Below, piece after piece: positions 5,160 to 18,650 of a DNA stretch of 18,650 nucleotides. Each line of letters starts with the position of its first letter. The first letter of the stretch is position 1. The notes beneath the pieces are model-generated. The model was not told the DNA's origin. It worked only from the letters and a program-made list of their open reading frames with translations, and ran no database searches. Both the position numbers and the translations under genes were made by a program. Source of the DNA: a virus; the UHGV virus genome UHGV-0185506; one strand, given 5' to 3'.

Positions 5160-6815
5160 ATGAGTACCACAACACGAAAATTTAAAACCATTATCACTGA
5201 TACTGGTGCCCAAAAATTAGCTCAGGCCGCCGCGCCAGATGGTAAGCCTGTCCGCCTGACTCACATGGCCGTGGGCGACGGTGGCGGCACGTTGCCCACA
5301 CCAGACAGTAAGCAGACCTGTCTGGTGCATGAGGTGTGGCGACATACCGTTAATCGCGTCATCCTGGACGCAACACATCAGAACCGCATTATTGCGGAGC
5401 TGGTTATTCCTCCTGAAACGGGCGGATTCTGGGTCCGGGAAATTGGTGTGTTTGATGAGCACGGTGATTTAATTGCGGTGGGCAATACTGCCGAAAGTTA
5501 CAAGCCAACCGTTGCCGAAGGGTCCGGACGTGCGCAAACATTTCGTACCATCTTGACCGTATCCAGCACTGCCACCGTGGAGCTTACCGTGGATAACACC
5601 ATGGTTATGGCCACAGTGGATTACGTGGATGACAAACTGAAAGAGCATGAACAGTCACGACGTCACCCGGACGCCTCGTTGACCGCAAAAGGTTTTACTC
5701 AGTTAAGCAGCGCGACCAACAGTGAATCTGAAACGCTGGCTGCAACTCCGAAAGCGGTTAAGGCAGCGTATGACCTTGCTAACAGAAAATACACCGCTCA
5801 GGACGCCAGCACGGGGCGAAAAGGTCTTGTCCAGTTAAGCAGCGCCACTAACAGTGATTCGGAAACGCTTGCTGCGACTCCGAAAGCAGTGAAAGCAGCG
5901 AATGACAATGCAAACAAGCGAGTACCTAAAGGAGCGGGATTAAATGAGTACGCCGAAAATATAAGTGATATTGCTACTGATTTACGTACGCGTGGTGGCT
6001 TTTTTAATGCTCCCTCAGCAAAGAATGGAATGCCTGGAGGACACACCTGGAAGCACTACATCAACTCTGCACACAGCAATACTCAGGGATACAATACTGT
6101 TATTGGCATTGATTTTAATGGAGATGTAATCGGTTTTGCGGCAGTTTGCGCAGGTGTTTTTAAGGGGTGGAAGTTGATTCATCATGACGGGTATAGCAAC
6201 TTCCCGGTAGGCGCTGCGATCCCGTGGCCTTCTGATTCAGTACCAACAGGCTATGCAATTATGCAGGGGCAGACTTTTGATAAAGCAGCCTATCCCTTGC
6301 TCGCAGCAGCTTATCCGTCAGGGGTGATTCCAGATATGCGCGGCTGGATAATCAAGGGCAAGCCCGCCAGCGGGCGTGCTGTATTGTCACAGGAACAGGA
6401 CGGGATTAAATCGCATACTCACAGTGCCAGTGCGTCAAATACGGATTTAGGAACGAAAACGACCAGTTCATTTGATTACGGCACGAAGACAGTCAGTACG
6501 TTTAACCACGGAACAAAAACCACTAATACAACTGGTAACCATACACATACCATTTACAGAGGGAATGCCAATACTAATGGTGAAACCGGAAAAACAGGTT
6601 TTGACAACCCATCGTTTAATGGCACATCAGGAGCTGCCGGGAATCATGCCCACACGGTAGATATCGGCTCACATAATCATACGGTTGGTATTGGTGCCCA
6701 TACGCACACAGTGGCATTAGGTGCGCACGGGCACACCATCACGGTAAATGCTACGGGTAATTCAGAGAACACCGTAAAAAACATTGCATATAACTATATT
6801 GTGAGGCTCGCATGA
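5160..6815 (+). CDS. H: Tail fibre protein H: conserved P2-type N-terminus, mosaic C-terminus with HxH (gp37-like) repeats
   Basis: N-terminus [23 protein letters not shown]... and duplicated [22 protein letters not shown] motifs are hallmarks of P2-type fibres. C-terminus [36 protein letters not shown]...NYIVRLA matches the HxH-repeat ends of Stf/gp37-type fibres. Confidence 0.9.
5696..5898 (+). repeat. Imperfect tandem direct repeat of about 75-80 bp inside H, encoding the duplicated QLSSATNS(E/D)[14 protein letters not shown] motif
   Basis: Two near-identical DNA blocks starting near 5696 and 5819 (…cagttaagcagcgc…gaaacgct…gctgc…actccgaaagc…). Confidence 0.8.
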
Positions 6816-7678
6816 TTAAGTTAATTCTTTCAGAGCCAGTCCATGAAATGGCAGATGCGTTTAAACGCGTTTTTGGCAATACCGACAATGTGGACGTTGT
6901 AGAAAAACCATTTGAAGCAATCTCAGAATTTGACTGCATGGTAAGTGCGGCAAACAGTTTCGGGCTAATGGATGGCGGCGTGGATGCTGCCATTACCGCA
7001 TTTTTTGGTACTCAACTACAGACGCGTGTTCAGAATCATATTATTCGTGAATATCTTGGTGAACAGCCCGTAGGGTCTGCTTTTGTTATTGAAACGGGGC
7101 ATAATCATCACCCCTGGCTGGTACATGCGCCAACAATGCGTGTTCCGCTGACAATTGACGGAACAGACGCTGTATATAACGCCACGTGGGCCGCTCTGCT
7201 TGCCATCTTTCAGCACAATAAAAATGCAACGACAGACAGGAAAATAAAAACGGTGGTATTACCTGCAATGGGGGCCGGATGTGGTCAGGTGCCGTTTGAA
7301 AGTGTTGCCCGGCAGATGAAGCTGGCATGGGATAACTTTAATAAAACAGAATCAATTAACTGGGAATACGCATATTCCCGCCAGTGGGCGGTATTTAACA
7401 CATGTGCATACTGCCCCGGTAAATCTGGTTGTCGTTATGCTGATATTAAATATATTGGATGTGGTGATTACCGTACGTATTGCTTACGGTCAGGGCAGGT
7501 ATGTATTAACCCTGAACATCAGGTTGATGACGTGCTGACTAATAATCGCTCTCGCCCGGGGGCACATATACACCAGATTAATCCGGTAAAACCCGTAGGT
7601 AACGTTACCATTGGCGCACACAGCCACGGAAGGAATATCACCATTGGTGCTCATTCCCATACAACCAATAAACAATAA
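6812..7678 (+). CDS. Macro-domain (ADP-ribose binding/hydrolase fold) protein with a Cys-rich, HxH-repeat fibre-tip-like C-terminus
   Basis: ATG overlaps the H stop (ATGA), with SD GAGG upstream. Macro signature: [19 protein letters not shown] (compare NAAN..L..GGGV..AI), LVHAPTM (compare H-VGP), [14 protein letters not shown] (compare FPAISTGIYGYP). C-terminus carries CxxC...C...C and GAHIH/GAHSHG/GAHSHT repeats like the H tip. Confidence 0.6.
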
Positions 7679-7708
7679 TTCTGTCTCTGACATTAAGTAG
7701 AGGTGAAC

Positions 7709-8287
7709 ATGACTTTCAGAATGAGTGCTGAAGCACAAACCATTCGCGTATTTAATTATCTCGATGGTACAAATGAATTTATTGGTGAAAGCGATATGTA
7801 CATTCCACCACATACAGGCTTACCCGCAAACTGTACAGATATTGCACCTCCAGATATTCCGGCTGGCTATGCTGCCGTTTTCAATGCAGACGAAATGAAA
7901 TGGCATCTGATGGAAGACCATCGCGGAAAGACTGTATACGAAACGAAAACAGGAGCAGCAATTTATATTTCTGAGCTTGGAGCATTACCTCCTGACGTAA
8001 CAACAATTTCTCCGACTGGCAATTATCAGAAATGGAATGGTAATGTGTGGGTGGATGATGAAAATGCAGAGCATGATGCGCTTGTCAGAGCAGCTGAGTC
8101 TCAGAAAAAAGAACTACTCAGAAATGCAAGTGAAATAATCACTATCTTGCAGGATGCCGTTGATTTAAGCATTGCGACAAAGGAAGAAATAATGTTACTA
8201 AATGAGTGGAAGATGTATCGTATATTATTGAACAGGATTGATACATCAATGACACTAAATATCCAGTGGCCAACCTCCCCACAGTAA
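7709..8287 (+). CDS. Tail fibre assembly protein (gpG / Tfa family)
   Basis: Position directly after the fibre gene. C-terminal region (…[26 protein letters not shown]) matches the conserved tail-fibre-assembly C-terminal domain. SD GAGGTG before the ATG at 7709; the track start at 7703 is a GTG two codons upstream. Confidence 0.75.
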
Positions 8288-8294
8288 AAAAAAT

Positions 8295-8313
8295 AGCAGG
8301 CGATTCGCCTGCT
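8295..8313. terminator. Bidirectional intrinsic terminator between the convergent assembly and glycosyltransferase genes
   Basis: Hairpin agcaggcg-att-cgcctgct, flanked by an A8 run on the plus strand (a T8 run on the minus strand, directly after the minus-strand gene) and by ttaatt downstream. Confidence 0.7.
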
Positions 8314-8317
8314 TTAA

Positions 8318-9052
8318 TTAATTGCGGCTGGATAGTTTAAATTGTTTAATTTTTGCTTTTATGGTGTTTTTCAGCGAGTACGACGGCACCCATTTTAAAG
8401 CAACCTGCCAAGGACGAGGCGAGCCATGAAAACATACTATTCTGGCGTTTTCAGGCACTGACCCATTGGCCAAACCATCATGTAGTTCAGCATTGAAACC
8501 AATCATTTTAGGTGTGGCAATATTTGCTTTATAACTCACAATAAATCCGGGAAGAACATCCTGCCAACGTTCTGCGTCAGGATATATTTCACTGATAAAT
8601 CCCTGATCACCGTGATAAGGAGGTAATTTATTCCTGGACATTATCTGTTCAGCATTATCCTTGAAAGCATTCCAAGCACGGTATTTTTCCTTTGCTGGAA
8701 TAAACATAATACCAGAAGCAGCGGGAGCATTTTCTTTACCGACGCATGAGAAATCGGTAAGCATTGTCATATTCTGCAAATTGGTGAATTCATGTAGATC
8801 GCCCGTAATAACGGTATCGATATCTATATAAAGTATATCTTCCTTTCCAATAACAGGGTGTTCTGGATTGAATAATTCTATTTTCGCCCACCATCCCGGC
8901 CAATTATAAAGAAGCGGCGCAGTTTCTACTCCCTCAATGTAAACTGCGTCTGTTAAACATACTGAACGAATACCCCTGATTTGCTGGTGTAGCCATTGGG
9001 CATGCTTGGGGGTGAAATCTTTGCTACAACGAAGGACTGAAACAACCAGCAC
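8318..9052 (-). CDS. Putative GT-A fold glycosyltransferase, GT8-like (DxD motif); cargo (moron) gene
   Basis: GTG start at 9052 with SD AGGAG 6 nt upstream. WAKIEL...KEDILYIDIDTVITGDL parallels the remembered LgtC segment ARLKL...DKVLYLDIDVLVRDSL. ASGIMFIPAKEKYRAW parallels NAGVLLINLKKWRR. C-terminal FHGSPRPW resembles the GT8 HxxGxxKPW motif. AT-rich relative to the core phage genes. Confidence 0.5.
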   Translation of the reverse strand: MLVVSVLRCSKDFTPKHAQWLHQQIRGIRSVCLTDAVYIEGVETAPLLYNWPGWWAKIELFNPEHPVIGKEDILYIDIDTVITGDLHEFTNLQNMTMLTDFSCVGKENAPAASGIMFIPAKEKYRAWNAFKDNAEQIMSRNKLPPYHGDQGFISEIYPDAERWQDVLPGFIVSYKANIATPKMIGFNAELHDGLANGSVPENARIVCFHGSPRPWQVALKWVPSYSLKNTIKAKIKQFKLSSRN

Positions 9053-9080
9053 TACTTACTCCTAAATACACAACTGTAGA

Positions 9081-9108
9081 TATATAACTCGCGTTTATGA
9101 TATCACAA
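9081..9108 (-). promoter_or_regulatory. Candidate sigma70 promoter for the glycosyltransferase gene
   Basis: Minus-strand reading gives TTGTGA (-35; plus 9103-9108), a 16-nt spacer, then TATATA (-10; plus 9081-9086), about 25 nt upstream of the SD, in an AT-rich spacer. Confidence 0.35.
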
Positions 9109-9334
9109 ACAAAAGCATAAAACTTACCCACATAAGTAGAGTCATATAGTCTCTGCCAATATAATGAGTGACTATTTCACTAAGCTTTCATCGAAACAAT
9201 AGACCTAGAGTTAAGCTATTAATCACTCTAACAAGGTAGAGATATTGATTTTGCTATACCGACGTTTTGTCAGTACTTCCCCAGCAAGACACAACATGAA
9301 GTCGGCACAGTTTTTGAAGTTATTTAAGGAACAG

Positions 9335-9366
9335 AAAAACCGCTAATCTGATCATTAGCGGTTTTT
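9335..9366. terminator. Bidirectional intrinsic terminator 9 nt downstream of the U stop
   Basis: aaaaa-CCGCTAAT-ctgatc-ATTAGCGG-ttttt: 8-bp perfect stem with A-run and T-run on either side. Confidence 0.8.
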
Positions 9367-9374
9367 GCGTTAAA

Positions 9375-9869
9375 TCAGAACACCCCTTTAACTGAACTGG
9401 CTGCGCTGTTAAGGGATGACGTCACCTTATCTTTGAAGCCGGACAGCATATCACTGAACGATGAGGATTGCAGGCGCTCCCGCAAATCCTCATCACAGCG
9501 TTCAAGAGTCAGTGAAAATTCTATCTTTTTCGCCTTACCGTAGCGATCAAACTCGGAACGGGTCGTATTCGTTTCAGTCAGTACATACATGCCGTAAATC
9601 TGCCCAACACCATCAATCAGAGGCCAGGGGCGTCCTGTATATGCCTGCGTGGTCAGCAACGAAAGCGACACTTCGCCACCTGTAATTTCAGGATAAAGCA
9701 CGCCGGAAAGCACGATGCGATCATCACCTGCGCCGATATACTGCCAGCTTGCTGAACGGTTAACGCGTTCATTTTTCACATGCCGCCAGCTTTTGTTTTG
9801 CTGTAACAGCTGATGCGGCAATGTGCGCAGCTCAAAAACAAACATGCCGTAGATCATCATCATGGCCAT
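9375..9869 (-). CDS. U: Tail protein U (P2 gpU-like)
   Basis: …FVFELRTLPHQLLQQNKSWRHVKNERV…YPEITGG…WPLIDGVGQIYGMYVL matches the remembered gpU. Follows T on the same strand. Confidence 0.85.
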   Translation of the reverse strand: MAMMMIYGMFVFELRTLPHQLLQQNKSWRHVKNERVNRSASWQYIGAGDDRIVLSGVLYPEITGGEVSLSLLTTQAYTGRPWPLIDGVGQIYGMYVLTETNTTRSEFDRYGKAKKIEFSLTLERCDEDLRERLQSSSFSDMLSGFKDKVTSSLNSAASSVKGVF

Positions 9870-9875
9870 GACTCC

Positions 9876-12719
9876 TCAATCTTTATCGTAAAAACTGCCA
9901 CGTCCGGCACGGTCGCGTCGTTCCAATTCTGCCCTGACCATTTCACCGACCAGTTTCGCCAGTTCGCGGGGATTCTGCGTAACAACGTTATGCAGATGAA
10001 CATGAATTTCACCGCCAAATCCGGAGACAACAGGCTCCCGGTTACGGGAAGTTGCAGGAACTGATGCCACTGGCGATCGTATGGCCTCCGCCACCGGGCG
10101 GGAGCTGGCCGCAACAACAGGGACCAGCGCCGGAGGCAGAGGAGTCTGGACCACGGGTGTGATGTTGATTGCGGAAGCAGGCTTACTGACCTGCGCAATC
10201 TTCCGCTCCTGCCACTCCCCACGAACAGCAAGTGCGCGGGGCAGGTTCTTAAAGACAATATCGCCGGGGCCAATGCGTTTTTTCGTCTCATCAACCAGCT
10301 TACCTGTGTTATCAGCAATTTTGCTGAGTCTGCGTAGCGTACCGGTATTGCTGTCTGTGAGCGGTTTGTTGTCTTTGGGTTTATCACCTCCGGTGCCATT
10401 GCCATTTTCCACAAGCTTCGGCGGATTGATTTTCGCCAGGTCCCCCTGAAGCAAGGCAACCTTGTCCTGAAGAATGGCCGCACGCTGTGCGTCTTCGATT
10501 TTCTTGCGCGCCCTTTCCGCTTCATCCGGAAGCACACCGAGCTTTTCAAGTATCCACGCCAGCGTATCCAGCAACATTTTTGCAGGTGTCAGAACAAGTT
10601 GTAACGCACCACCAAGAACGTTACCGAATATCTCGCCAGCACTGGTACATTTATCCAGCGTTTCCTTGCTGGACTCCATCGGTGACAGCAGCGATTTAAA
10701 CCAGTTAAACACCTGGCTTATCCCGCTTCCGATTGCGTCAAAAACAGGACCAAACCGTTCAAAGGTTTCGCGCAACGGGGTCAGCCTTTCCATAATCCCG
10801 CTGAACACCCCGGCAAAAAATGCCCTGATGGGATCCCAGTATTTCCAGATAAGAACGGCAGCTCCGGCAAGCGCAGCCACGATAAGACCAACCGGACTGA
10901 ACAGCGCCCCGATAGCGCCTCCCAGCAAAGAAACGGAACCCGTCACCATTCCCCATAGTGCTGGCAGGAGCCTGACAGCATTCATTGATCTGGTCAGGAG
11001 GGAAAAACCAAGACGCAGTTTTGCCAGTGGACCAGCAAGCACACCAAGAGCAAGCGACAACGAGCCTACGGTTGCAGTCACTGCCAGCAGCGCACCGCCT
11101 GCAATCAGTAGCTGGCGCGTCAGTACAGGATGGGCCTGCGCCAGTGCCGTCACCTTTGAGACCACCCGCGTTAGCCACTGCGTGACAGAACGCAGCGAAC
11201 CGTCAACCAGATCACTGATGCGAATACGAAGACCTTCCCATGCGCTGTCGAGATTTTTCAGGTCGCCATCAAGGTTGTCGGCCATAACCTTTGCTGTGCG
11301 TTCAGCCTCACCGCGTGCGCCCTCAAGTTCTTTTCTCAGTTTGGGTAAGGAACCGTCACCCGCCGCATCAACGAGCGCCATAAACGATGTGAAAGCCTCT
11401 TCCCCGGCGATGTCCTTAAAGAAGGATACCCGGTCAACTTCCCCGTATTTGCGGGTAGCTTTATAAAGGTCAGCCAGCAGATCTTCCATCGGGCGCATTT
11501 TGCCCCCGGCATCCGAGACGGACACGCCCAGCTCTTTCAGAGCTTCTGCCGCCGCCTTTGGCGGTGATGCCAGACGAGCCAGGCTGGCACGCATTGCCGT
11601 CCCGGCATCACTCCCCCTGATGCCCATATTCGCCAGCACGCCCGCCATAGCTGCGGCCTGCTCCAGCGATATTCCCAGCTTACCCGCCACCGGACCTGCA
11701 TATTTCATGGTTTCGCCCAGTGCGCGAAGGTCAGTGTTGGTACGGGTAAACGCTGCGGTGAGTGTGTCACCGACCCGGTCCATCTGGTCAGCAGAAAGGC
11801 CGAACTGCGTCAGGATATTTGAGCCAATATCCGCCGTCTCGCCGAGATCCATACCGCCAGCCGTTGCCATGCTCAGCACGCCGGGAAGCGCAGCCTGAAT
11901 GGCCTGCGGAGTGAAGCCAGCCATTGCAAGAAATGCCTGTCCACTGGCGGCATCGCCTGCGGTGAACTGCGTTTCAGAGCCAAGTTTTAACGCCTGCTCA
12001 CGCAGCGCCTTAAACTGCGGGCTGTTTTTGTCGATTCGCGTCAGTGCCTGAACGCGGGACATCTCTTTCCCGAACCCGATCGCGGGCTGTAAAAAACGCC
12101 CGGCAGCATAGCCGCCCGCCGCTGCCGCACCAATTGCCAGCGCACCACCTGTTTTCAGTTTTCCCGCTGTTTCCTGCGCGCGCGAATACCGCTCACGCGC
12201 CTGCGTTACACGTGCAAGCGCCTGCCGTTCGCGTTCAAGCTGGTTGTTGTATTGTTCGGTGCGTCTGATGGCCTGCTGGATGGTGTTATCACTGCCTGTC
12301 AGGGAAATGCCGTGGCGTTTCAGCTCTCCGCCAAGCTCCCGCATTTTCTGAATTTCCCGTGCGCGCGATTCATTCAGGCGTTCAAGCCGGGTGCTTAACT
12401 GCTGCATCAGCTTTTGTTGTTTTTCGCTGAGCACTGCCCCCGTGCGTTGTAACTGATTAAGGGCGTTAAGTTGGCGTCGTGCTTTCACGATGCCAGCATC
12501 CGCTTTACTGACAGCGTCGCGGGCGCGCTCAAATGATCGCGCCTGACGCTCGAGATTTTTGATCGCCCCCTGCGTTCGCTGGATGGAGTCACCAAACTGC
12601 CCCATCAGGCGGCGTGCGTTTTCGGCAGGTCGGGTCAGCCTGTCAACGGCGCTGAAAGCGACCCGGATATCAAGAGTCTTCATCGTCTGCATTCCCACTG
12701 CGAAGTGCCGCCCGCTCAC
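9876..12719 (-). CDS. T: Tail tape measure protein T
   Basis: 947 aa, Ala/Gln/Arg-rich and coiled-coil-like, with internal hydrophobic segments. Position after E/E' and before U. Confidence 0.9.
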   Translation of the reverse strand: MSGRHFAVGMQTMKTLDIRVAFSAVDRLTRPAENARRLMGQFGDSIQRTQGAIKNLERQARSFERARDAVSKADAGIVKARRQLNALNQLQRTGAVLSEKQQKLMQQLSTRLERLNESRAREIQKMRELGGELKRHGISLTGSDNTIQQAIRRTEQYNNQLERERQALARVTQARERYSRAQETAGKLKTGGALAIGAAAAGGYAAGRFLQPAIGFGKEMSRVQALTRIDKNSPQFKALREQALKLGSETQFTAGDAASGQAFLAMAGFTPQAIQAALPGVLSMATAGGMDLGETADIGSNILTQFGLSADQMDRVGDTLTAAFTRTNTDLRALGETMKYAGPVAGKLGISLEQAAAMAGVLANMGIRGSDAGTAMRASLARLASPPKAAAEALKELGVSVSDAGGKMRPMEDLLADLYKATRKYGEVDRVSFFKDIAGEEAFTSFMALVDAAGDGSLPKLRKELEGARGEAERTAKVMADNLDGDLKNLDSAWEGLRIRISDLVDGSLRSVTQWLTRVVSKVTALAQAHPVLTRQLLIAGGALLAVTATVGSLSLALGVLAGPLAKLRLGFSLLTRSMNAVRLLPALWGMVTGSVSLLGGAIGALFSPVGLIVAALAGAAVLIWKYWDPIRAFFAGVFSGIMERLTPLRETFERFGPVFDAIGSGISQVFNWFKSLLSPMESSKETLDKCTSAGEIFGNVLGGALQLVLTPAKMLLDTLAWILEKLGVLPDEAERARKKIEDAQRAAILQDKVALLQGDLAKINPPKLVENGNGTGGDKPKDNKPLTDSNTGTLRRLSKIADNTGKLVDETKKRIGPGDIVFKNLPRALAVRGEWQERKIAQVSKPASAINITPVVQTPLPPALVPVVAASSRPVAEAIRSPVASVPATSRNREPVVSGFGGEIHVHLHNVVTQNPRELAKLVGEMVRAELERRDRAGRGSFYDKD

Positions 12720-12888
12720 GCCAGCTAACCACTTCGCCGGGCGTCATCATGAAGATTTCGGCGGGCGACCAGTTAAAAATAACGGCAATATCTGCCACAA
12801 AGTCTTCTATGTGCTCAAAGCACACAACCGTGATCAGGCTTCCGTCGCCTGTTCGTTCTTCCCGCCAGAGTCCGCACCGCTCAAAAAA
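12670..12888 (-). CDS. E': E' extension: -1 frame segment fused to E by programmed frameshift to give E+E', overlapping the T start
   Basis: The -1 frame is open from 12918 to 12670 and bridges the E stop to the T start. Slippery heptamer T TTT TTG on the minus strand at 12888-12882, read as N-F-L in frame 0 and as F-F-E after slippage. Confidence 0.7.
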   Translation of the reverse strand, partial: FFERCGLWREERTGDGSLITVVCFEHIEDFVADIAVIFNWSPAEIFMMTPGEVVSWRERAALRSGNADDEDS

Positions 12889-13202
12889 TTTACGGCAACC
12901 ACACATAACTGAATAAAGTCACGGGATGCCATTTTTTTGATCGTCACTTCATCCAGTCGCGGTGATGTCACGCGCGACAACAGCGTAAACATGGATTCCG
13001 CTTTCAGATTCAGCACATCAGACAGCGACAGACCACGCAGGGATCCAGCCTGCTCAATAGCCCCGGTGATCTCCACATACGTGATTTTTTCGTCGCCTCG
13101 CTCAATTGGTTGGGTAAGTTTTACGCCGCGCTCGCTGGTTTCTTTCGCAGTATCAGCAACCACCACAGCGTTTTCAGTATCGGTATTTTTCGTCTCTTTC
13201 AT
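12834..13202 (-). CDS. E: Tail assembly chaperone E (P2 gpE-like)
   Basis: 122 aa, acidic, between the tube gene and T. Contains the T TTT TTG slip site near its 3' end. Confidence 0.8.
   Translation of the reverse strand: MKETKNTDTENAVVVADTAKETSERGVKLTQPIERGDEKITYVEITGAIEQAGSLRGLSLSDVLNLKAESMFTLLSRVTSPRLDEVTIKKMASRDFIQLCVVAVNFLSGADSGGKNEQATEA
12882..12888 (-). other. Programmed -1 ribosomal frameshift slippery heptamer T TTT TTG
   Basis: Plus strand caaaaaa at 12882-12888 gives minus-strand TTTTTTG in the X XXY YYZ register of the E frame. Confidence 0.7.
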
Positions 13203-13256
13203 CAGAAAACTCCTTTCAGTCAGAGGCGACGCACTGCGCCGCCTGCATATTACTTA

Positions 13257-13769
13257 TCAGCCAAGCCCAAGCGCGGAACGGATGCGATCGGGCACAATGT
13301 CCTTGCCGTCCTTCCGGTAAATAAAGTTCAGCAGGTCAATCTCCCACAACGGGCGATCGTTAACACTCAGCTTGTAGTAGGTGTTTTTAATGGCGTAAGT
13401 GTGTGATGTGGCTTCGCCCTGTTTGGCTTCCCCCATATCAATTTCCGTCACACGTCCGCGCATTTCGACTTCATACAGGTCGCTTTCTGCATCGGTGTAG
13501 TATTCACCCGCAAAACGCAGCAGCGTGCCGTCAATCGTGCCACCATACTTAAGGAACAGCTCACGAACTGCGCCCCCCATGACAAAGCTCGCATCAAGCG
13601 CGGAGTCGTCCAGACCGAGATCAATACTTACCGCACCCATCATGCCGCCCCCCCGGTAGCTGTCGGTTTTGCGCGTCAGCTTAGGCAGAGTGACGGACGT
13701 CACCTTACCCACTTCGTTTTCACCATCCACAAACAGCGTAAAAAAGCGAAGATGTTTTGGCACAGCCAT
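13257..13769 (-). CDS. FII: Tail tube protein FII
   Basis: MAVPKHLRF…VTLPKLTRKTDSYRGGGM…LGLDD matches the remembered P2 FII. Start overlaps the FI stop (TGATG). Confidence 0.9.
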   Translation of the reverse strand: MAVPKHLRFFTLFVDGENEVGKVTSVTLPKLTRKTDSYRGGGMMGAVSIDLGLDDSALDASFVMGGAVRELFLKYGGTIDGTLLRFAGEYYTDAESDLYEVEMRGRVTEIDMGEAKQGEATSHTYAIKNTYYKLSVNDRPLWEIDLLNFIYRKDGKDIVPDRIRSALGLG

Positions 13770-14953
13770 CAGGCACCTCCCAACACCGCAAATGCGGGTT
13801 CAAAGTATTCATCAGTAAACGTCTGGTAAAGCTCCATGTCTTCCAGTGGCGGAACGGGCGTATATTTGTAGCGAATACGCACACGCCCCTGACGTAAATC
13901 CGTGGTGCTGTTATCCACCACGTCATACCAGCACTCCGCGCCAATCAGTTTCCCGGCAGTAACCAGTGAATCCAGCTTTGCCCTGATGGCACTGATAACA
14001 TCCTTCACGTTCGCAGGCGTCAGTGGACTGTCGATGGTTTCAAACTGCGCTTCCGCAATTGAATCAGCCAGCACCTGTGCGGTTCGGGTATACACCTCAA
14101 AGATGTAGGCGTTCGTTTCCGGTGTGCGATTGCCCCAGAAGCGGAACCCGTTGCGACGAATAATGGTCGTGATTTCTTTGTTGTTGAGGCTGTTGGCATC
14201 ACTGTCTTCGGCCTGCAACGACCAGAACACATGCCTGGACATTCCCAGCACATTTTTAACCGGAACGTTGGACAGCGATTTGTGCCAGCCCTGCTCATGG
14301 TCAATGTACGCACGAAGGCCGCACGCATAGGCAGGCGCGGGGAACGTTTCGTTTTCGCCACTTTTCGGGTTGTAGGCGATGAAGTCCGGCCATAAGAGCA
14401 TCACTTCACGTTCGTTGAATTTCTGGCGGTAGGTAATCGCTTCAGCCATCGTGTTACAGCCGTGACATGAGGCATACACAAACGCGCGCAGTTTACCCGC
14501 AATCACGCACAGGGATTTTGTCACCGCCTCCGTGTCCAGCTCCGGCGCGGCCAGAATACGCGGACGGTATCCGATGCTTTCATCCTGCTCTGCAACAAGC
14601 AGCGCATACATCCCCGTATAGCTGCCGTCATCCTCAGAACCACCGATAACCAGTTGATCCTGCGTCTTACCGTCTTCTTCTTTGTGTTCAGCCACGCGAA
14701 CGACGATCACCTTTGTGCTCACCTGGTCTGCGATGGCCTTAAGCGCACGATAAAGCGTCCCCGTTGTTCCGCATTTTCCCAGCACGTCATTGACGCGGGT
14801 CAGCAGTGTGGGCTTGTTCAGCGGGAACAGCTTCGCGTCCGCATCATCCGCCGTTGCCACGATACCGATAACGCTGGAATCAACATCGTTAATCGCTGTT
14901 ACCAGGTCGGTATTTTCCGTAACACGGGCACCATGAAAACGAGTTTCACTCAT
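13769..14953 (-). CDS. FI: Tail sheath protein FI
   Basis: Strong match to the remembered P2 FI across its length (…DADAKLFPLNKP…AIADQ…CGLRAYIDHEQGWHKSLSNV…RRNGFRFWGNRT…YTPVPPLE). SD AAGGGG upstream. Confidence 0.95.
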   Translation of the reverse strand: MSETRFHGARVTENTDLVTAINDVDSSVIGIVATADDADAKLFPLNKPTLLTRVNDVLGKCGTTGTLYRALKAIADQVSTKVIVVRVAEHKEEDGKTQDQLVIGGSEDDGSYTGMYALLVAEQDESIGYRPRILAAPELDTEAVTKSLCVIAGKLRAFVYASCHGCNTMAEAITYRQKFNEREVMLLWPDFIAYNPKSGENETFPAPAYACGLRAYIDHEQGWHKSLSNVPVKNVLGMSRHVFWSLQAEDSDANSLNNKEITTIIRRNGFRFWGNRTPETNAYIFEVYTRTAQVLADSIAEAQFETIDSPLTPANVKDVISAIRAKLDSLVTAGKLIGAECWYDVVDNSTTDLRQGRVRIRYKYTPVPPLEDMELYQTFTDEYFEPAFAVLGGA

Positions 14954-15034
14954 AGCTTCAGCCCCTTGTATCCGTTAAATGATTCGGCAACAATCATCAC
15001 CCACCACGCGCGTAATCTCACCCCTGCGCCGTTC

Positions 15035-15051
15035 TTGTCGCCCGGCGACAA
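15035..15051. promoter_or_regulatory. Perfect 17-bp palindrome TTGTCGCCCGGCGACAA in the divergent FI/D intergenic region; candidate activator site
   Basis: Seen directly in the sequence. Centred about 90 nt upstream of the FI ATG and about 68 nt upstream of the D ATG. The function is inferred, not shown. Confidence 0.3.
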
Positions 15052-15110
15052 CAAAAAGCAGTAACCCCGCCCGCACACACATGCGACCATGCCGCACAGG
15101 GAGGGAGCAG

Positions 15111-16220
15111 ATGACCGATACCACCATGCAATTGCTCAGTCAGGGCACAGACCCCGTGAAAATGCCGGATTTTGATATTCTTGCGGAGGGTAAAACGCTG
15201 TCAGGCGTGGCAGAGCGCCTGATGAGCCTGTCACTGACCGACAACCGGGGATTTGAGGCGGACCAGCTCACCATCACGCTGGATGATGCGGATGGTCAGT
15301 TGCAGCTACCGCCACGGGGCGCGCGCCTGACGGTTCTCATTGGCTGGAAAGGAGAACCGCTGACAGAAAAAGGCACTTACATTGTTGATGAAATCGCTCA
15401 CGAAGGACCGCCAGACAGGCTGACAGTTTCAGCCAGAAGCGCAGATTTTCGGGATGAATTTAACGTTAAACGTGAGGTGTCCTGGCATGATGTGACCGTT
15501 GAGCGTGTGGTATCCGCCATCGCTCATCGGTATGGTCTGAAACCGCAAATCAGCGAAATGCTGATGGATATCGAAATCGACCACGCCGACCAGACCGAAG
15601 AAAGCGACATGTCCTTCCTTACGCGCATGGCGGAAATGCTGGGCGCAATCACTACGGTAAAAAGCGGTAATCTGTTATTCATCATGCCAGGCGGTGGCGT
15701 GAACGCGCAGGGCCAGCCGTTGCCCTCGTTCGCCATCACACGCAGCAGCGGCGATCGCCATCAGTTCCGCATTGCTGACCGAGAGGCGTATACGGGGGTA
15801 CGCGCTTACTGGCTTGATCTTAATTACGGGAAAAAGAAAAAAGTCAGCGTGAAACGCCGCAAACCGCAAAAACCCAAAAAGGAGAAAAGCAGCAGCCGTG
15901 AAGGTGATTATATGGAAGGCGCGGAAGGCAATGTGTTTGTGTTACGCAAGACTTATCAGAACGAGCAGGCAGCAAGACGCGCAGCGGCGGCAAAGTGGCA
16001 GCAGCTACAACGCGGAGCCGCATCATTCTCCATCACGCTGGCGCGTGGACGCGCAGAACTCTATCCCGAAATGCATGGCACGGTAGCAGGCTTTAAAAGC
16101 GAGATTGATAATCAGGACTGGATTATTGCAAAAGCCGAGCACACCATTGATAACAGCGGCTTTACCACGCAGCTTGAGCTTGAGGCAAAAATCCCGGAAT
16201 GGATAGCGGAAACAGAGTGA
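15111..16220 (+). CDS. D: Late tail gene D product (P2 gpD-like)
   Basis: ATG at 15111 with SD GAGGGAG. …LSLTDNRGFEADQLTITLDDADG…RSADFRDEFNVKREVSWHD…ITRSSGDRHQFRIADREAYTGVRA…WLDLN… matches the remembered gpD throughout. The track ORF start at 14979 is an upstream extension. Confidence 0.9.
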   Translation: MTDTTMQLLSQGTDPVKMPDFDILAEGKTLSGVAERLMSLSLTDNRGFEADQLTITLDDADGQLQLPPRGARLTVLIGWKGEPLTEKGTYIVDEIAHEGPPDRLTVSARSADFRDEFNVKREVSWHDVTVERVVSAIAHRYGLKPQISEMLMDIEIDHADQTEESDMSFLTRMAEMLGAITTVKSGNLLFIMPGGGVNAQGQPLPSFAITRSSGDRHQFRIADREAYTGVRAYWLDLNYGKKKKVSVKRRKPQKPKKEKSSSREGDYMEGAEGNVFVLRKTYQNEQAARRAAAAKWQQLQRGAASFSITLARGRAELYPEMHGTVAGFKSEIDNQDWIIAKAEHTIDNSGFTTQLELEAKIPEWIAETE

Positions 16221-16261
16221 GCAACTTAGAATAGCGGCAGCACTACGTTAAGGGGGTTGCC

Positions 16262-16522
16262 ATGTTCCGTTGTCCGCTTTGTGGCGCATCTGCCCGTATC
16301 CGCACCAGTCGTTCGGAAAATGATTCAGATACCGTACGGAAAAAATATTACCAGTGTAACAACCTGGAATGCGGCGTATGCTTCTCAACACTGGAAGCTT
16401 TCCATAAATTCACATCGAAACACGCCTCCGGCGTTCACTCTTCAGATGGTATCCCGTGGCATGAGCTGCCAGCTTCACACAGGGGAAACAATCAGATGAG
16501 TTTGCCTTTACCTCAGAATTAA
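16262..16522 (+). CDS. ogr: Late gene transcription activator, Ogr/Delta zinc-finger family
   Basis: MFRCPLCGASARIRTSR…YYQCNNLECGVCF carries the CxxC…CxxC arrangement and N-terminal similarity to the remembered P2 Ogr. SD AAGGGGG upstream. Confidence 0.85.
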   Translation: MFRCPLCGASARIRTSRSENDSDTVRKKYYQCNNLECGVCFSTLEAFHKFTSKHASGVHSSDGIPWHELPASHRGNNQMSLPLPQN

Positions 16523-17156: not shown

Positions 17157-17456
17157 TTACTCGTCTTTGGGCGAAGCGTTTTCGACCCGGCTTTTTAACT
17201 TCTGCCCTGGTCTGAAGGTCACCACGCGCCGTGCTGTAATGGGAATATCTTCGCCCGTTTTCGGGTTACGTCCCGGACGTTGATTCTTATCACGCAGATC
17301 GAAGTTACCAAAGCCAGAGAGTTTTACCTGCTCGCCGTTTTCCAGAGCGCGACGGATCTCTTCGAAAAACAGTTCAACCAGTTCTTTGGCATCCCGCTTG
17401 CTAAGCCCAAGCTTATCAAACAGATATTCTGACATTTCAGCTTTTGTAAGCGCCAT
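17157..17456 (-). CDS. ihfA: Integration host factor alpha subunit
   Basis: 99-aa translation ([99 protein letters not shown]) matches E. coli IhfA as I recall it. Confidence 0.95.
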
Positions 17457-17460
17457 AGGT

Positions 17461-18650
<1,190 letters not shown>

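What the first reader, a model, noticed from the sequence alone, without database searches (positions are those of the whole stretch)
6812..7678. Macro-domain protein fused to a fibre-tip-like HxH module, inserted between tail fibre H and its assembly gene
The H-then-assembly-gene pair is normally contiguous. Here a 288-aa ORF, translationally coupled to H (ATGA overlap), sits between them. Its N-terminal ~175 aa carry the three macro-domain signature blocks ([17 protein letters not shown]; LVHAPTM; [14 protein letters not shown]). Its C-terminal ~110 aa carry a Cys cluster ([10 protein letters not shown]…GCGDYRTYC) and GAH(S/I)H repeats that resemble the metal-binding HxH repeats at the end of H. 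A late-expressed ADP-ribose-binding or hydrolase fold joined to a fibre-tip-like domain suggests a virion-associated enzyme. It could reverse ADP-ribosylation-based host immunity on entry, or act as an accessory adhesin. I do not know of an established phage module of this architecture.
Basis: partly seen in the sequence, partly recalled or inferred. Interest (0 to 1): 0.8.

Follow-up and report, generated by a model that had tools for sequence, protein, structure and literature searches.

The report
Macro-domain gene in tail-fibre cassette
Between a prophage's tail-fibre gene and the fibre's chaperone gene sits an intact, well-conserved gene for an ADP-ribose-processing (macro-domain) enzyme with a metal-binding tail that copies the fibre's own histidine repeats; it is common and already catalogued in enterobacterial prophages, including Gifsy-1, but I found no study of its function.

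Summary
ORF 6812-7678 (288 aa) overlaps the stop of fibre gene H (ATGA). It encodes a confident macro domain (Pfam E=4e-18; fold closest to yeast Ymx7), then a Cys4 zinc-ribbon-like knuckle and three GAHxH boxes. These boxes align with the iron-binding His boxes of the adjacent T4-gp37-type fibre tip (hhalign 95%).

It is a clean ~0.9 kb optional insert: other E. coli prophages have the same fibre tip and chaperone directly abutting.

It is not rare. About 1,700 homologue clusters exist, 128 of 5,426 complete E. coli genomes carry it, and it is in Gifsy-1. RefSeq calls it "macro domain-containing protein"; PHROG 2613 gives no function. It occupied the fibre/chaperone slot in every locus I examined (78 of 78 assessable viral contigs), across at least four tail types.

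The macro domain is under strong purifying selection (dN/dS ~0.1). The His tail is variable, and rare variants lack it.

Best reading (inferred): a late, fibre-co-translated cytoplasmic ADP-ribose hydrolase or binder. It rides the recombining fibre-tip/chaperone cassette and most likely acts in counter-defence. Catalogued but uncharacterised; moderate interest.

The parts
5160..6815 (+). Tail fibre gene H (551 aa). N-terminal P2-type tail-collar fibre domain, two fibre repeats and a Collar domain.
   Evidence: Pfam PF12571, PF03406 and PF07484; PHROG 295 tail fibre.
6180..6812 (+). T4-gp37-type receptor-binding tip of H (res 341-551). It has a collar, descending and ascending GxHxH boxes around a very short head, and the C-terminal ..[11 protein letters not shown] motif.
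   Evidence: phmmer against PDB 2XGF (T4 gp37 tip), E=3.2e-77. Fibre C-termini aligned.
6803..6806 (+). GAGG Shine-Dalgarno-like motif inside the last H codons, 5 nt before the macro ATG. In macro-less loci the same conserved codons precede the tfa ATG.
   Evidence: Read from the sequence and the junction alignment with L004. The ribosome-binding role is inferred.
6812..7678 (+). Macro-domain ORF, 288 aa, with an ATGA overlap on the H stop. This is the inserted gene: the insert relative to macro-less loci runs from about 6814 to 7708.
   Evidence: and 28-29 for the clean indel.
6812..7396 (+). Macro domain (res 1-195), Ymx7/YMR087W-like. Conserved ADP-ribose-loop residues are N48, G55-G56-V-D58 and G154-A-G156-x-G158.
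   Evidence: Pfam E=4.3e-18; AF2 pLDDT >90; Foldseek 1njr E=8e-12; profile against PDB E=1.1e-16. D58, P107 and G158 are invariant and N48, G55 and G56 are >=90% conserved in 79 diverse sequences. dN/dS is 0.09-0.15 in most pairs.
7397..7531 (+). Cys4 zinc-ribbon-like knuckle (res 196-240): AYC201-P-x4-C207 ... C224-x6-C231-I..H236-Q. Two beta-hairpins are predicted.
   Evidence: The four Cys and H236 are invariant or near-invariant in alignments A1 and A7. AF2 predicts strands at 210-216 and 219-224 with pLDDT 60-70. dN/dS is 0.2-0.35. Metal binding is inferred.
7532..7675 (+). Variable His-box tail (res 241-288) with three GAHxH boxes at nt 7559-7573, 7613-7627 and 7646-7660.
   Evidence: hhalign against fibre His boxes, 95% probability, E=3.5e-8. 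Weak PHROG 295 and 2097 tail-fibre hits, E~0.01. There are 72 distinct C-terminal (Zn-ribbon plus tail) sequences among 105 homologues. dN/dS is 0.36-0.76. AF2 monomer pLDDT is <50.
7700..8287 (+). Tail fibre assembly gene (tfa, a P2 G / lambda Tfa / Mu U homologue) with its own GAGG at 7700-7703. The likely start is ATG 7709, not the GTG 7703 that the ORF listing gives.
   Evidence: Pfam Caudo_TAP E=1.3e-38; PHROG 105; PDB 5YVQ_B Mu TfaU E=6.9e-9. The N-terminus MTFRMS matches homologues.
8295..8313 (.). GC-rich hairpin followed by a T run, lying between the convergent tfa and the minus-strand cargo gene. It is the likely end of the H-macro-tfa transcription unit.
   Evidence: Terminator-like site found on the minus strand in the scan. 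Function on both strands is inferred.

Best explanation
Shown: ORF 6812-7678 is an intact gene under purifying selection. It encodes a Ymx7-type macro domain, a fold that binds or hydrolyses ADP-ribose derivatives. This is followed by a Cys4 zinc-ribbon-like knuckle and a short tail of GxHxH boxes homologous to those of the adjacent T4-gp37-type fibre tip. It is an optional ~0.9 kb cargo gene in a fixed slot. Its ATG overlaps the stop of the fibre gene, and its end abuts or overlaps the start of the fibre chaperone gene. Together with the last 45-60 fibre codons and the first ~55 chaperone codons, it moves among P2-like, apparently P1-like, lambdoid and another contractile-tail prophage type.

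Inferred: it is made late, in step with fibre and chaperone, and works in the cytoplasm of the phage-producing cell rather than on the virion. There it removes or sequesters an ADP-ribose-derived modification or signal. The most likely role is counter-defence against ADP-ribosylation-based or ADPR-signal-based immunity, by analogy with the macrodomain anti-DarT2 factor AdfM of T4. The Cys/His tail most likely oligomerises the protein, or docks it to the fibre-tip/chaperone assembly, through the same metal-stapled His-box chemistry. It is not essential, since a macro-only variant exists. The strict position is explained at least partly by hitch-hiking: the flanking fibre 3' end and tfa 5' end are the homologous sequences through which fibre tips recombine.
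For: Identity: Pfam Macro 65.8 bits; AF2 pLDDT >90 for res 1-190; fold and profile closest to 1njr, an ADP-ribose-1''-monophosphatase. The ADP-ribose-loop residues are the most conserved columns across 79 diverse homologues.

Selection: dN/dS is ~0.1 for the macro domain, 0.2-0.35 for the Zn knuckle and 0.4-0.8 for the tail. 73 of 78 viral-contig copies are intact.

Optional insert: L004 has the same H tip (91% aa) and tfa (79%) abutting.

Fixed slot: in 78 of 78 assessable IMG/VR loci the macro ATG overlaps the stop of a fibre ending ..NYIVRLA*, and tfa follows within -10 to +31 nt in 75 of 78. The same arrangement occurs in phage Chuche, ~95-kb P1-like plasmids, an E. coli lambdoid prophage, Gifsy-1, Salmonella contractile-tail and lambdoid prophages, Erwinia and Izhakiella.

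No own promoter or terminator: promoter-like sites are not enriched, none lies immediately upstream of the macro ATG, and the terminator-like hairpin comes only after tfa.

The nearest standalone relative (64% identity, 207 aa) lies in a phage accessory region beside ParB and methyltransferase genes, so the macro domain is an independently mobile phage cargo.

Precedents: T4 Tk.4/AdfM is a macrodomain that counters DarTG2 (bioRxiv 10.1101/2025.11.20.689424). Phages also carry orphan DarG-like antitoxins (PMC11825919 and PMC13309987).

Tail: hhalign gives 95% probability against fibre His boxes. His boxes are retained in 74 of 78 copies despite rapid turnover, and in the otherwise unrelated Cys/His-rich Izhakiella tail.
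Against: No biochemical, expression or virion data exist for any member. The substrate is unknown. Ymx7-type macro domains are annotated as Appr-1''-p phosphatases, not protein or DNA de-ADP-ribosylases. It is not a DarG orthologue: NCBIfam DarG scores 13 bits against a cut-off of 250, and PADLOC DarG gives E=0.009 on a partial match. Late expression is poor timing against defences that act on early DNA replication. Hitch-hiking alone does not explain why the Zn knuckle is under purifying selection, or why His boxes persist. Conversely, the macro-only variant L175, the His-less variant L171 and occasional frameshifts (L009, L169, L173, and a Salmonella lineage with a disrupted 5' half) show that neither the tail nor the whole gene is indispensable. 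Cellular homologues have no conserved gene neighbour that would point to a pathway.
Confidence: 0.45

Rival explanations
1. Fibre-tip-associated virion protein. The His-box tail, folded with help from Tfa, trimerises and docks the macro domain onto the fibre tip or onto tip-bound Tfa. The virion then carries an ADP-ribose-binding or hydrolysing module that acts at the cell surface or on entry.
For: The slot between fibre and chaperone is invariant, with overlapping start and stop codons, over >45% protein divergence. The His boxes are homologous to those that staple the trimeric gp37-type needle. The Zn knuckle is specific to the slot version and is under purifying selection. The position mirrors T2-type gp38 adhesins, which are encoded directly after gene 37 (own knowledge).
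Against: Fibre and Tfa exist and presumably function without it. A macro-only variant sits in the same slot. The tail is weakly constrained and sometimes frameshifted. The macro domain evolves slowly across hosts, unlike adhesins. ADP-ribose substrates are intracellular, and fibre tips are not known to enter the cell (own knowledge). There is no homology to gp38 or any fibre-attachment domain. The AF2 monomer gives no confident tail fold.
Confidence: 0.15
2. Pure hitch-hiker with a relic tail. A standalone phage macro gene landed once between the fibre and tfa genes. It has since spread passively with the recombining cassette. The His boxes are a decaying remnant of a fibre 3' fragment, or a recombination scar, with no function of their own. 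The enzyme's role, whatever it is, has nothing to do with fibres.
For: The indel is clean and the shared flanks end inside the fibre 3' end and the tfa 5' end. There is intragenic mosaicism: between the window and L002, dS is 0.30 in the 5' part and 0.03 in the 3' part. Tail dN/dS reaches 0.76, with 72 distinct C-terminal (Zn-ribbon plus tail) sequences among 105 homologues, variable box number, and truncations. L175 has the macro domain only. GxHxH-coding DNA is a known recombination hotspot in fibre genes (own knowledge; Sandmeier 1994, Tetart 1998).
Against: The Zn knuckle is conserved (dN/dS 0.2-0.35) and is found in no fibre protein. His boxes persist at the extreme C-terminus even in the unrelated Izhakiella tail. 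Tight translational coupling on both sides is maintained.
Confidence: 0.25
3. Trigger-linked antidote. The folded fibre-tip/chaperone complex is what an ADPR-signalling immune system senses. The macro protein is made in the same operon and docked by its fibre-like tail. It hydrolyses or sponges the ADPR-derived signal, or masks the trigger.
For: [quoted passage not shown] Its signal, His-ADPR, is read by a macro domain in ThsA (bioRxiv 10.64898/2026.06.04.730250). Here a macro domain is encoded exactly between fibre tip and chaperone and carries a fibre-mimicking tail.
Against: This rests entirely on analogy with a different phage group, host and fibre type. There is no evidence that gp37-type tips trigger Thoeris in enterobacteria. 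No binding data exist. It does not explain the macro-only variant's lack of a tail.
Confidence: 0.1
4. Housekeeping nucleotide clean-up. The enzyme removes ADP-ribose-1''-phosphate, O-acetyl-ADP-ribose or free ADPR produced in the dying host late in infection. There is no specific immune target.
For: The closest solved relative is an Appr-1''-p phosphatase. The family is a widespread solitary cellular gene with no conserved partner.
Against: Such a role gives little reason for long-term retention in a temperate-phage late operon, or for acquiring a Cys/His extension. E. coli already has its own macro enzyme, YmdB (own knowledge).
Confidence: 0.05

Closest known systems
Gifsy-1 STM2588.1n and RefSeq 'macro domain-containing protein' / PHROG 2613
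   Same: Same protein family and same slot (stf-macro-tfa): 67.5% identity over res 1-276. PHROG 2613 matches at E=2e-135 over res 1-263. An identical protein is already in NCBI and JGI.
   Different: Nothing essential differs. The window copy sits in a P2-like rather than a lambdoid prophage, and it has three irregularly spaced His boxes where Salmonella copies have one to three at 9-residue spacing. None of these entries has a tested function.
Yeast Ymx7 (YMR087W; PDB 1njr), an ADP-ribose-1''-monophosphatase (Pfam Macro_2)
   Same: It is the best structural and profile match for res 1-195. It shares the (S/P)(A/G)NS(F/Y)G..GG(V/F)D and PG(L/M)(G/C)TG loops.
   Different: Identity is only ~19%. 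The Pfam Macro_2 score (26.2) falls just under its cut-off (27). Ymx7 is a eukaryotic cellular enzyme with no Cys/His extension.
T4 Tk.4 / AdfM, the macrodomain anti-DarTG2 factor (bioRxiv 10.1101/2025.11.20.689424)
   Same: A phage-encoded macro-domain accessory protein. A tk.4 homologue appears among the structural matches (BFVD Q6J2P1, E=4.9e-5). It is a functional precedent for counter-defence.
   Different: It belongs to a different macro subfamily and PHROG. It has no Cys/His tail and is not in a fibre operon; T4 tk.4 lies among the early genes (own knowledge). DarG models score far below threshold here.
T4 gp37 receptor-binding tip (PDB 2XGF) His boxes
   Same: The macro tail's GAHxH boxes align with the ascending His boxes of the neighbouring H tip, which is itself a close homologue of 2XGF. 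In 2XGF these boxes coordinate iron in a trimeric needle (own knowledge; Bartual 2010).
   Different: The tail has only 1-4 boxes. It has no collar, no head, no descending strand and no ..NYIVRLA end. Spacing in the window copy is irregular (18 and 11 residues, against 9). Trimer formation is untested.
T2/S16-type gp38 adhesin
   Same: It is encoded immediately after a gp37-type fibre gene, as an extra protein alongside the fibre.
   Different: There is no sequence or profile similarity and no glycine-rich motifs. A separate Tfa chaperone is present. The macro domain is slow-evolving rather than hypervariable.

Membership tests
Macro domain (Pfam PF01661) | Profile score above the curated gathering threshold | tested here: met
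   65.8 bits against a cut-off of 22, E=4.3e-18, res 44-169 covering profile positions 1-118 of 118.
Macro domain (Pfam PF01661) | Three-layer alpha/beta/alpha macro fold | tested here: met
   AF2 pLDDT is >90 over res 1-190. Foldseek gives 202 PDB matches at E<=0.001, and the 50 best listed are macro domains or proteins designed on a macro-domain scaffold. The top match is 1njr at E=8e-12.
Macro domain (Pfam PF01661) | Conserved ADP-ribose-binding loops (the Asn of the xAAN motif, GGxD, and the second Gly-rich loop) | tested here: met
   N48, G55, G56, D58 and G154-A-G156-x-G158 are present. D58 and G158 are invariant, and N48, G55 and G56 are >=90% conserved in 79 sequences.
Macro domain (Pfam PF01661) | Binding or hydrolysis of ADP-ribose derivatives | not testable with these tools
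   Needs biochemistry.
Ymx7 / Macro_2 subfamily (Pfam PF14519) | Profile score above the gathering threshold, and closest solved relative | tested here: inconclusive
   26.2 bits against a cut-off of 27. However, 1njr is the best hit both by family profile (E=1.1e-16) and by fold.
DarG antitoxin / anti-DarT macrodomain | Match to the DarG equivalog or defence-system models | tested here: not met
   NCBIfam NF048014 scores 13.3 bits against a cut-off of 250. PADLOC DarG gives E=0.009 over 39 residues.
DarG antitoxin / anti-DarT macrodomain | Adjacent DarT toxin gene, or a DarT-binding C-terminal domain | tested here: not met
   The neighbours are the fibre and chaperone genes. The major ORFs of the window that I scanned are lysis, tail and baseplate genes or host genes, with no ADP-ribosyltransferase among them.
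DarG antitoxin / anti-DarT macrodomain | Removal of ADP-ribose from DNA | not testable with these tools
   Needs an assay on DarT-modified DNA.
gp37-type fibre tip (His-box needle) | GxHxH boxes homologous to those of fibre needles | tested here: met
   hhalign 95% probability, E=3.5e-8 over 29 columns; BLASTP E=4e-6; PHROG 295 at E=0.009.
gp37-type fibre tip (His-box needle) | Collar domain, head domain, and the C-terminal ..NIAxNYIVRLA motif | tested here: not met
   All are absent from the macro protein.
gp37-type fibre tip (His-box needle) | Metal-stapled homotrimer | not testable with these tools
   Only monomer prediction was available, and the tail has pLDDT <50.
Tail fibre assembly chaperone (Caudo_TAP) or gp38 adhesin | Profile or sequence similarity | tested here: not met
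   There is no Pfam, PHROG or NCBIfam hit other than macro families. The separate tfa gene downstream carries Caudo_TAP.
Moron (independently transcribed prophage cargo) | Own promoter and terminator; presence or absence between otherwise syntenic phages | tested here: inconclusive
   Presence/absence is met. An own promoter or terminator was not seen: the start overlaps the H stop, and the first terminator-like site lies after tfa.

The most novel reading that the evidence does not exclude
The macro protein is a 'trigger-linked antidote'. Its fibre-mimicking His-box and zinc tail docks it, as a metal-stapled oligomer, to the assembling gp37-type fibre tip/Tfa complex. That complex is itself what an ADP-ribose-based immune system senses (type II Thoeris-like His-ADPR signalling, or an ADP-ribosyltransferase toxin). 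The macro domain destroys or sequesters the ADPR-derived product at its source. A related unexcluded version is that the protein stays on the fibre tip in the virion.
Probability: 0.12. Interest if true: 0.85.

Novelty: new variant of a known kind. Interest (0 to 1): 0.45.

Why it matters
Phage macro domains are emerging as counter-defence enzymes; T4 AdfM against DarTG2 is one example. This family is carried by model prophages (Gifsy-1) and by about 2% of complete E. coli genomes. It always sits in one slot of the most frequently exchanged phage module, the fibre tip and its chaperone.

If it is a counter-defence factor, host-range cassettes carry an immune-evasion function together with receptor specificity. 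That matters for predicting and engineering phage host range. If instead the His-box tail docks it to the fibre or chaperone, it would be the first enzyme known to use fibre-needle chemistry as an attachment or oligomerisation device.

Either way it is an easily testable gene. Natural plus and minus alleles exist, as do a macro-only allele and inducible prophages.

Tried and rejected
- The first AF2 run used 14 close homologues and gave pLDDT 54, which was unusable. I repeated it with 79 diverse sequences.
- Frameshifted-remnant idea: rejected for the window copy. The ORF is intact, dN/dS is ~0.1 and 73 of 78 copies are intact. Sporadic frameshifted copies do exist (L009, L169, L173, L176).
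- Tail as an out-of-frame translation of fibre DNA, or the Izhakiella tail as a frameshift of the E. coli one: three-frame translations show neither.
- Independent C-terminal module: the SEN34 hit to res 183-254 and the 72-106 aa Salmonella 'hypothetical proteins' looked like a free-standing Zn/His module. They are 3' fragments of disrupted macro genes, called from the internal Met169.
- Zn knuckle as a fibre 'head' domain: a profile search of 5.8 billion proteins found it only in this family's fragments, and in no fibre protein.
- Conserved neighbours of 63 cellular standalone homologues: none recurred in more than 5 loci, so this gave no pathway hint.
- Own promoter: promoter-like sites are not enriched, and none lies immediately upstream of the macro ATG.
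- An ADP-ribosyltransferase partner in the window: none among the scanned ORFs.
- Literature: searches combining macro domain or macrodomain with tail fiber, with Gifsy-1, and 'macro domain-containing protein' with prophage found nothing on this family. The SEN4/5 paper has no virion proteomics. STM2587 appears once, in an operon list STM2586-2587-2588 of an MX-treatment (mutagen) microarray study. I could not confirm that this locus tag is the macro gene.
- H-macro fusion by programmed frameshift: I saw no slippery heptamer at the junction when reading the sequence. I did not pursue this further.
Full report
**What is in the window**

The window is the late region of a P2-like prophage. Reading along the + strand it carries:
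- holin, endolysin and spanin;
- tail completion genes;
- baseplate genes V, W, J and I;
- fibre gene H (5160-6815);
- the ORF in question (6812-7678);
- a tail fibre assembly gene (7709-8287).

Then comes a convergent minus-strand block: a glycosyltransferase-like cargo gene, gpU, tape measure, tube and sheath. After that lie gpD and ogr on the + strand, followed by the host genes ihfA and pheT. The ORF's DNA is 97.9% identical to Escherichia phage Chuche.

**Check of the observation**

The 288-codon ORF, its ATGA overlap with the H stop and every quoted motif are present.

The macro assignment is secure:
- Pfam PF01661 scores 65.8 bits against a cut-off of 22.
- A profile of 79 diverse homologues matches yeast Ymx7 (PDB 1njr, deposited as an ADP-ribose-1''-monophosphatase) at E=1.1e-16.
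- An AlphaFold2 model built on that alignment has pLDDT above 90 for residues 1-190. Foldseek returns 1njr at E=8e-12, followed by TTHA0132, MacroD2, YmdB and DarG macro domains.
- The residues that line the ADP-ribose site in characterised macro domains are the most conserved columns of the family. These are N48, G55-G56-V-D58 and the G154-A-G156-x-G158 loop.

**The C-terminal extension**

Residues 196-240 form a C-x5-C ... C-x6-C knuckle. The four cysteines and H236 are invariant or nearly so across Escherichia, Salmonella, Erwinia, Citrobacter and Enterobacter copies. Two beta-hairpins are predicted at moderate confidence, so it looks like a zinc ribbon. Metal binding is inferred.

Residues 241-288 carry three GAHxH boxes. 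The last 211 residues of H are a close homologue of the solved T4 gp37 receptor-binding tip (PDB 2XGF, E=3.2e-77). In that structure such boxes coordinate iron along a trimeric needle (own knowledge; Bartual et al. 2010).

A profile-profile comparison of macro tails against fibre C-termini aligns the tail boxes with the fibre's last three boxes, at 95% probability and E=3.5e-8. Salmonella tails even keep the fibre's 9-residue period: IGAHTHTID-TGAHNHTIQ, compared with [18 protein letters not shown] in the fibre.

The tail is nevertheless the least constrained part of the protein:
- There are 72 distinct C-terminal (Zn-ribbon plus tail) sequences among 105 homologues.
- Copies carry from zero to four boxes.
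- dN/dS is 0.36-0.76. It is 0.2-0.35 for the knuckle and 0.09-0.15 for the macro domain in most pairs.
- In the monomer model the tail is disordered.

**It is an insertion**

E. coli prophage locus L004 has the same H tip (91% amino-acid identity over residues 348-551) and the same chaperone (79%). There the H stop and the tfa start are adjacent (..GCATAATGGCTTTCAGAATGAGT..). The window has about 0.9 kb (roughly 6814-7708) in exactly that place.

The GAGG inside the conserved last codons of H serves whichever gene follows it. The insert brings a second GAGG for tfa.

In macro-carrying E. coli loci, nucleotide similarity to the window begins 125-180 nt before the H stop and ends about 160-220 nt into tfa. 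The mobile unit is therefore the fibre 3' end, the macro gene and the tfa 5' end.

GC content falls from 52-57% in the baseplate genes to 36-48% from mid-H through the cargo gene. This fits a horizontally exchanged distal module.

**How common, and where**

The family is large and already catalogued:
- 1,725 protein clusters at E<=0.001, including a 100% identical protein already in NCBI and JGI.
- 128 of 5,426 complete E. coli genomes carry it, with 108 copies on chromosomes and 22 on plasmids.
- PHROG 2613, function unknown, matches at E=2e-135.
- RefSeq uses the names 'macro domain-containing protein' and 'phage tail protein'.
- The Gifsy-1 record annotates STM2588.1n as 'contains pfam01661'.

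Every copy I examined lies between a gp37-type fibre gene and tfa. This holds in:
- P2-like phages (the window, Chuche, SEN4/5);
- ~95-kb plasmids with a P1-like tail region (the P1 assignment is my inference from the gene content);
- an E. coli lambdoid prophage, Gifsy-1 and other Salmonella lambdoid prophages;
- a Salmonella contractile-tail prophage with an E217/Baseplate_J/Wedge1 baseplate;
- Erwinia and Izhakiella, at 52-65% identity.

In IMG/VR, all 78 assessable loci have the macro ATG overlapping the stop of a fibre ending ..NYIVRLA*. In 75 of them tfa follows within -10 to +31 nt, often with overlapping stop and start codons.

Exceptions to the architecture are informative:
- L175 has a 203-residue macro-only protein in the same slot.
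- L171 has the knuckle but no His box.
- Izhakiella replaces the knuckle with another Cys/His-rich sequence but keeps the terminal His boxes.
- A few copies are frameshifted or 5'-disrupted.

**Where the macro domain comes from**

Residues 1-195 belong to a widespread family of ~200-residue solitary proteins. It has 2,386 representative clusters and occurs in Chloroflexota, cyanobacteria and Bacteroidota, with eukaryotic fusions. These genes have no conserved neighbour.

The nearest standalone relative (64% identity, 207 aa) lies in a phage accessory region beside ParB-like and methyltransferase genes. The macro domain is therefore a mobile phage cargo in its own right. The Cys/His extension is almost entirely confined to the fibre-slot lineage.

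**Most likely mechanism**

Shown:
- The gene is intact and under purifying selection.
- It is optional.
- It is embedded in the fibre-chaperone transcription unit. No promoter-like site lies directly upstream of its start, and the first terminator-like hairpin comes after tfa.

Inferred:
- It is made late, together with fibre and chaperone.
- It acts in the cytoplasm on an ADP-ribose-derived substrate.
- The most plausible purpose is counter-defence. T4 Tk.4/AdfM is a macrodomain that protects T4 from DarTG2 (bioRxiv 10.1101/2025.11.20.689424). Other phages carry orphan DarG-like antitoxins (PMC11825919, PMC13309987).

This protein is not a DarG orthologue, because the DarG models score far below threshold. 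The claim is therefore 'works like', not 'is a member of'.

The tail most likely oligomerises the protein or docks it to the fibre-tip/chaperone assembly. The macro-only variant shows that the tail is dispensable for occupying the slot.

Hitch-hiking through the homologous flanks is sufficient to explain the strict synteny. It does not explain the conservation of the knuckle or the persistence of the His boxes.

**Rivals**

1. The synteny and the His boxes are compatible with it. Against it stand the optional presence of the gene, the slow evolution of the macro domain across hosts, the extracellular fate of fibre tips and the macro-only variant.
2. A pure hitch-hiker with a relic tail.
3. A 'trigger-linked antidote'. 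In Pseudomonas N4-like phages, side-tail-fibre plus chaperone alleles set sensitivity to type II Thoeris. Its His-ADPR signal is read by a macro domain (bioRxiv 10.64898/2026.06.04.730250). A macro domain encoded between fibre tip and chaperone could neutralise such a signal. This is analogy only.
4. Housekeeping clean-up of small ADPR derivatives.

**Novelty and score**

The gene itself is already in databases and is annotated by domain. I found no paper on its function, on its invariant slot or on its fibre-like tail. I rate it a new variant of a known kind: a phage macro-domain accessory gene with an unusual extension and a fixed slot. Interest is moderate (0.45). The experiments that would settle it are simple and are listed under next steps.

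Noticed in passing
window 8318-9052 (-): A 243-aa convergent cargo gene right after tfa. It has no Pfam hit but matches PHROG 1962 (category 'moron...', annotated glycosyltransferase) at E=1e-83. Other loci carry different surface-modifying or virulence cargo at the same place after tfa. Examples are an LPS GlcNAc-transferase plus an acetyltransferase (L002), a methyltransferase and the cdtABC genes (L003), a hexapeptide acetyltransferase (L091-93), and PagK, NleG and GogB (Gifsy-1, L086-89).
   Followed up: partly
window 6180-6812: The tip of H is a close homologue of the solved T4 gp37 tip (2XGF, E=3e-77). Its 'head' between the descending and ascending His boxes is very short, about 29 residues ([29 protein letters not shown]). 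The head is the segment that varies most between the fibres compared.
   Followed up: partly
window 6812-7678 compared with L002 6001-6870: Mosaicism inside the macro gene. The 5' 585 nt differ at dS 0.30 from the P1-like plasmid copy, while the 3' 280 nt (knuckle plus tail) differ at dS ~0.03. A recombination breakpoint therefore lies within the gene.
   Followed up: partly
window 7703-7711: the ORF listing starts tfa at GTG 7703. The homologues' N-terminus (MTFRMS / MAFRMS) and the GAGG at 7700-7703 indicate ATG 7709 as the real start.
   Followed up: yes
window 8318-16522: The tail sheath, tube, tape-measure and gpU genes are on the minus strand, convergent with the baseplate and fibre block. 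gpD and ogr are back on the plus strand. This differs from the co-linear P2 order (own knowledge) and matches the SEN4/5-Chuche subgroup. The prophage ends near ihfA and pheT (17157-18540).
   Followed up: no
window ~5850: GC content drops from 52-57% (baseplate genes, proximal H) to 36-48% (distal H, macro, tfa, cargo gene). This marks the boundary of the exchanged distal-fibre module.
   Followed up: no
L002 6001-6892 (NZ_CP046005): RefSeq flags this copy as 'frameshifted', yet it translates as an intact 289-aa ORF ending at the same stop as the window copy. The flag probably comes from comparison with the longer 296-300 aa tail variant.
   Followed up: yes
L175 3001-3612 (IMG/VR UViG_2916255364_000002): A macro-only allele: 203 aa with no Cys knuckle and no His boxes. 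It sits in the same fibre/tfa slot, with its stop abutting the tfa start (TAATG).
   Followed up: partly
phage records (Noxifer, FBKp24, RTH11, phiRSL1, P106B): Distant macro homologues (32-47% identity over the macro domain) in jumbo and other phages are annotated 'tail protein' or 'tail assembly-like protein'. This probably spread from the context-based naming of the enterobacterial family rather than from evidence.
   Followed up: no
L176 4500-5306 and proteins P0270-P0280: A widespread Salmonella lineage (over 100 contigs) has the macro gene's 5' half disrupted. Gene callers then report a 72-106 aa 'hypothetical protein' starting at the internal Met169.
   Followed up: partly
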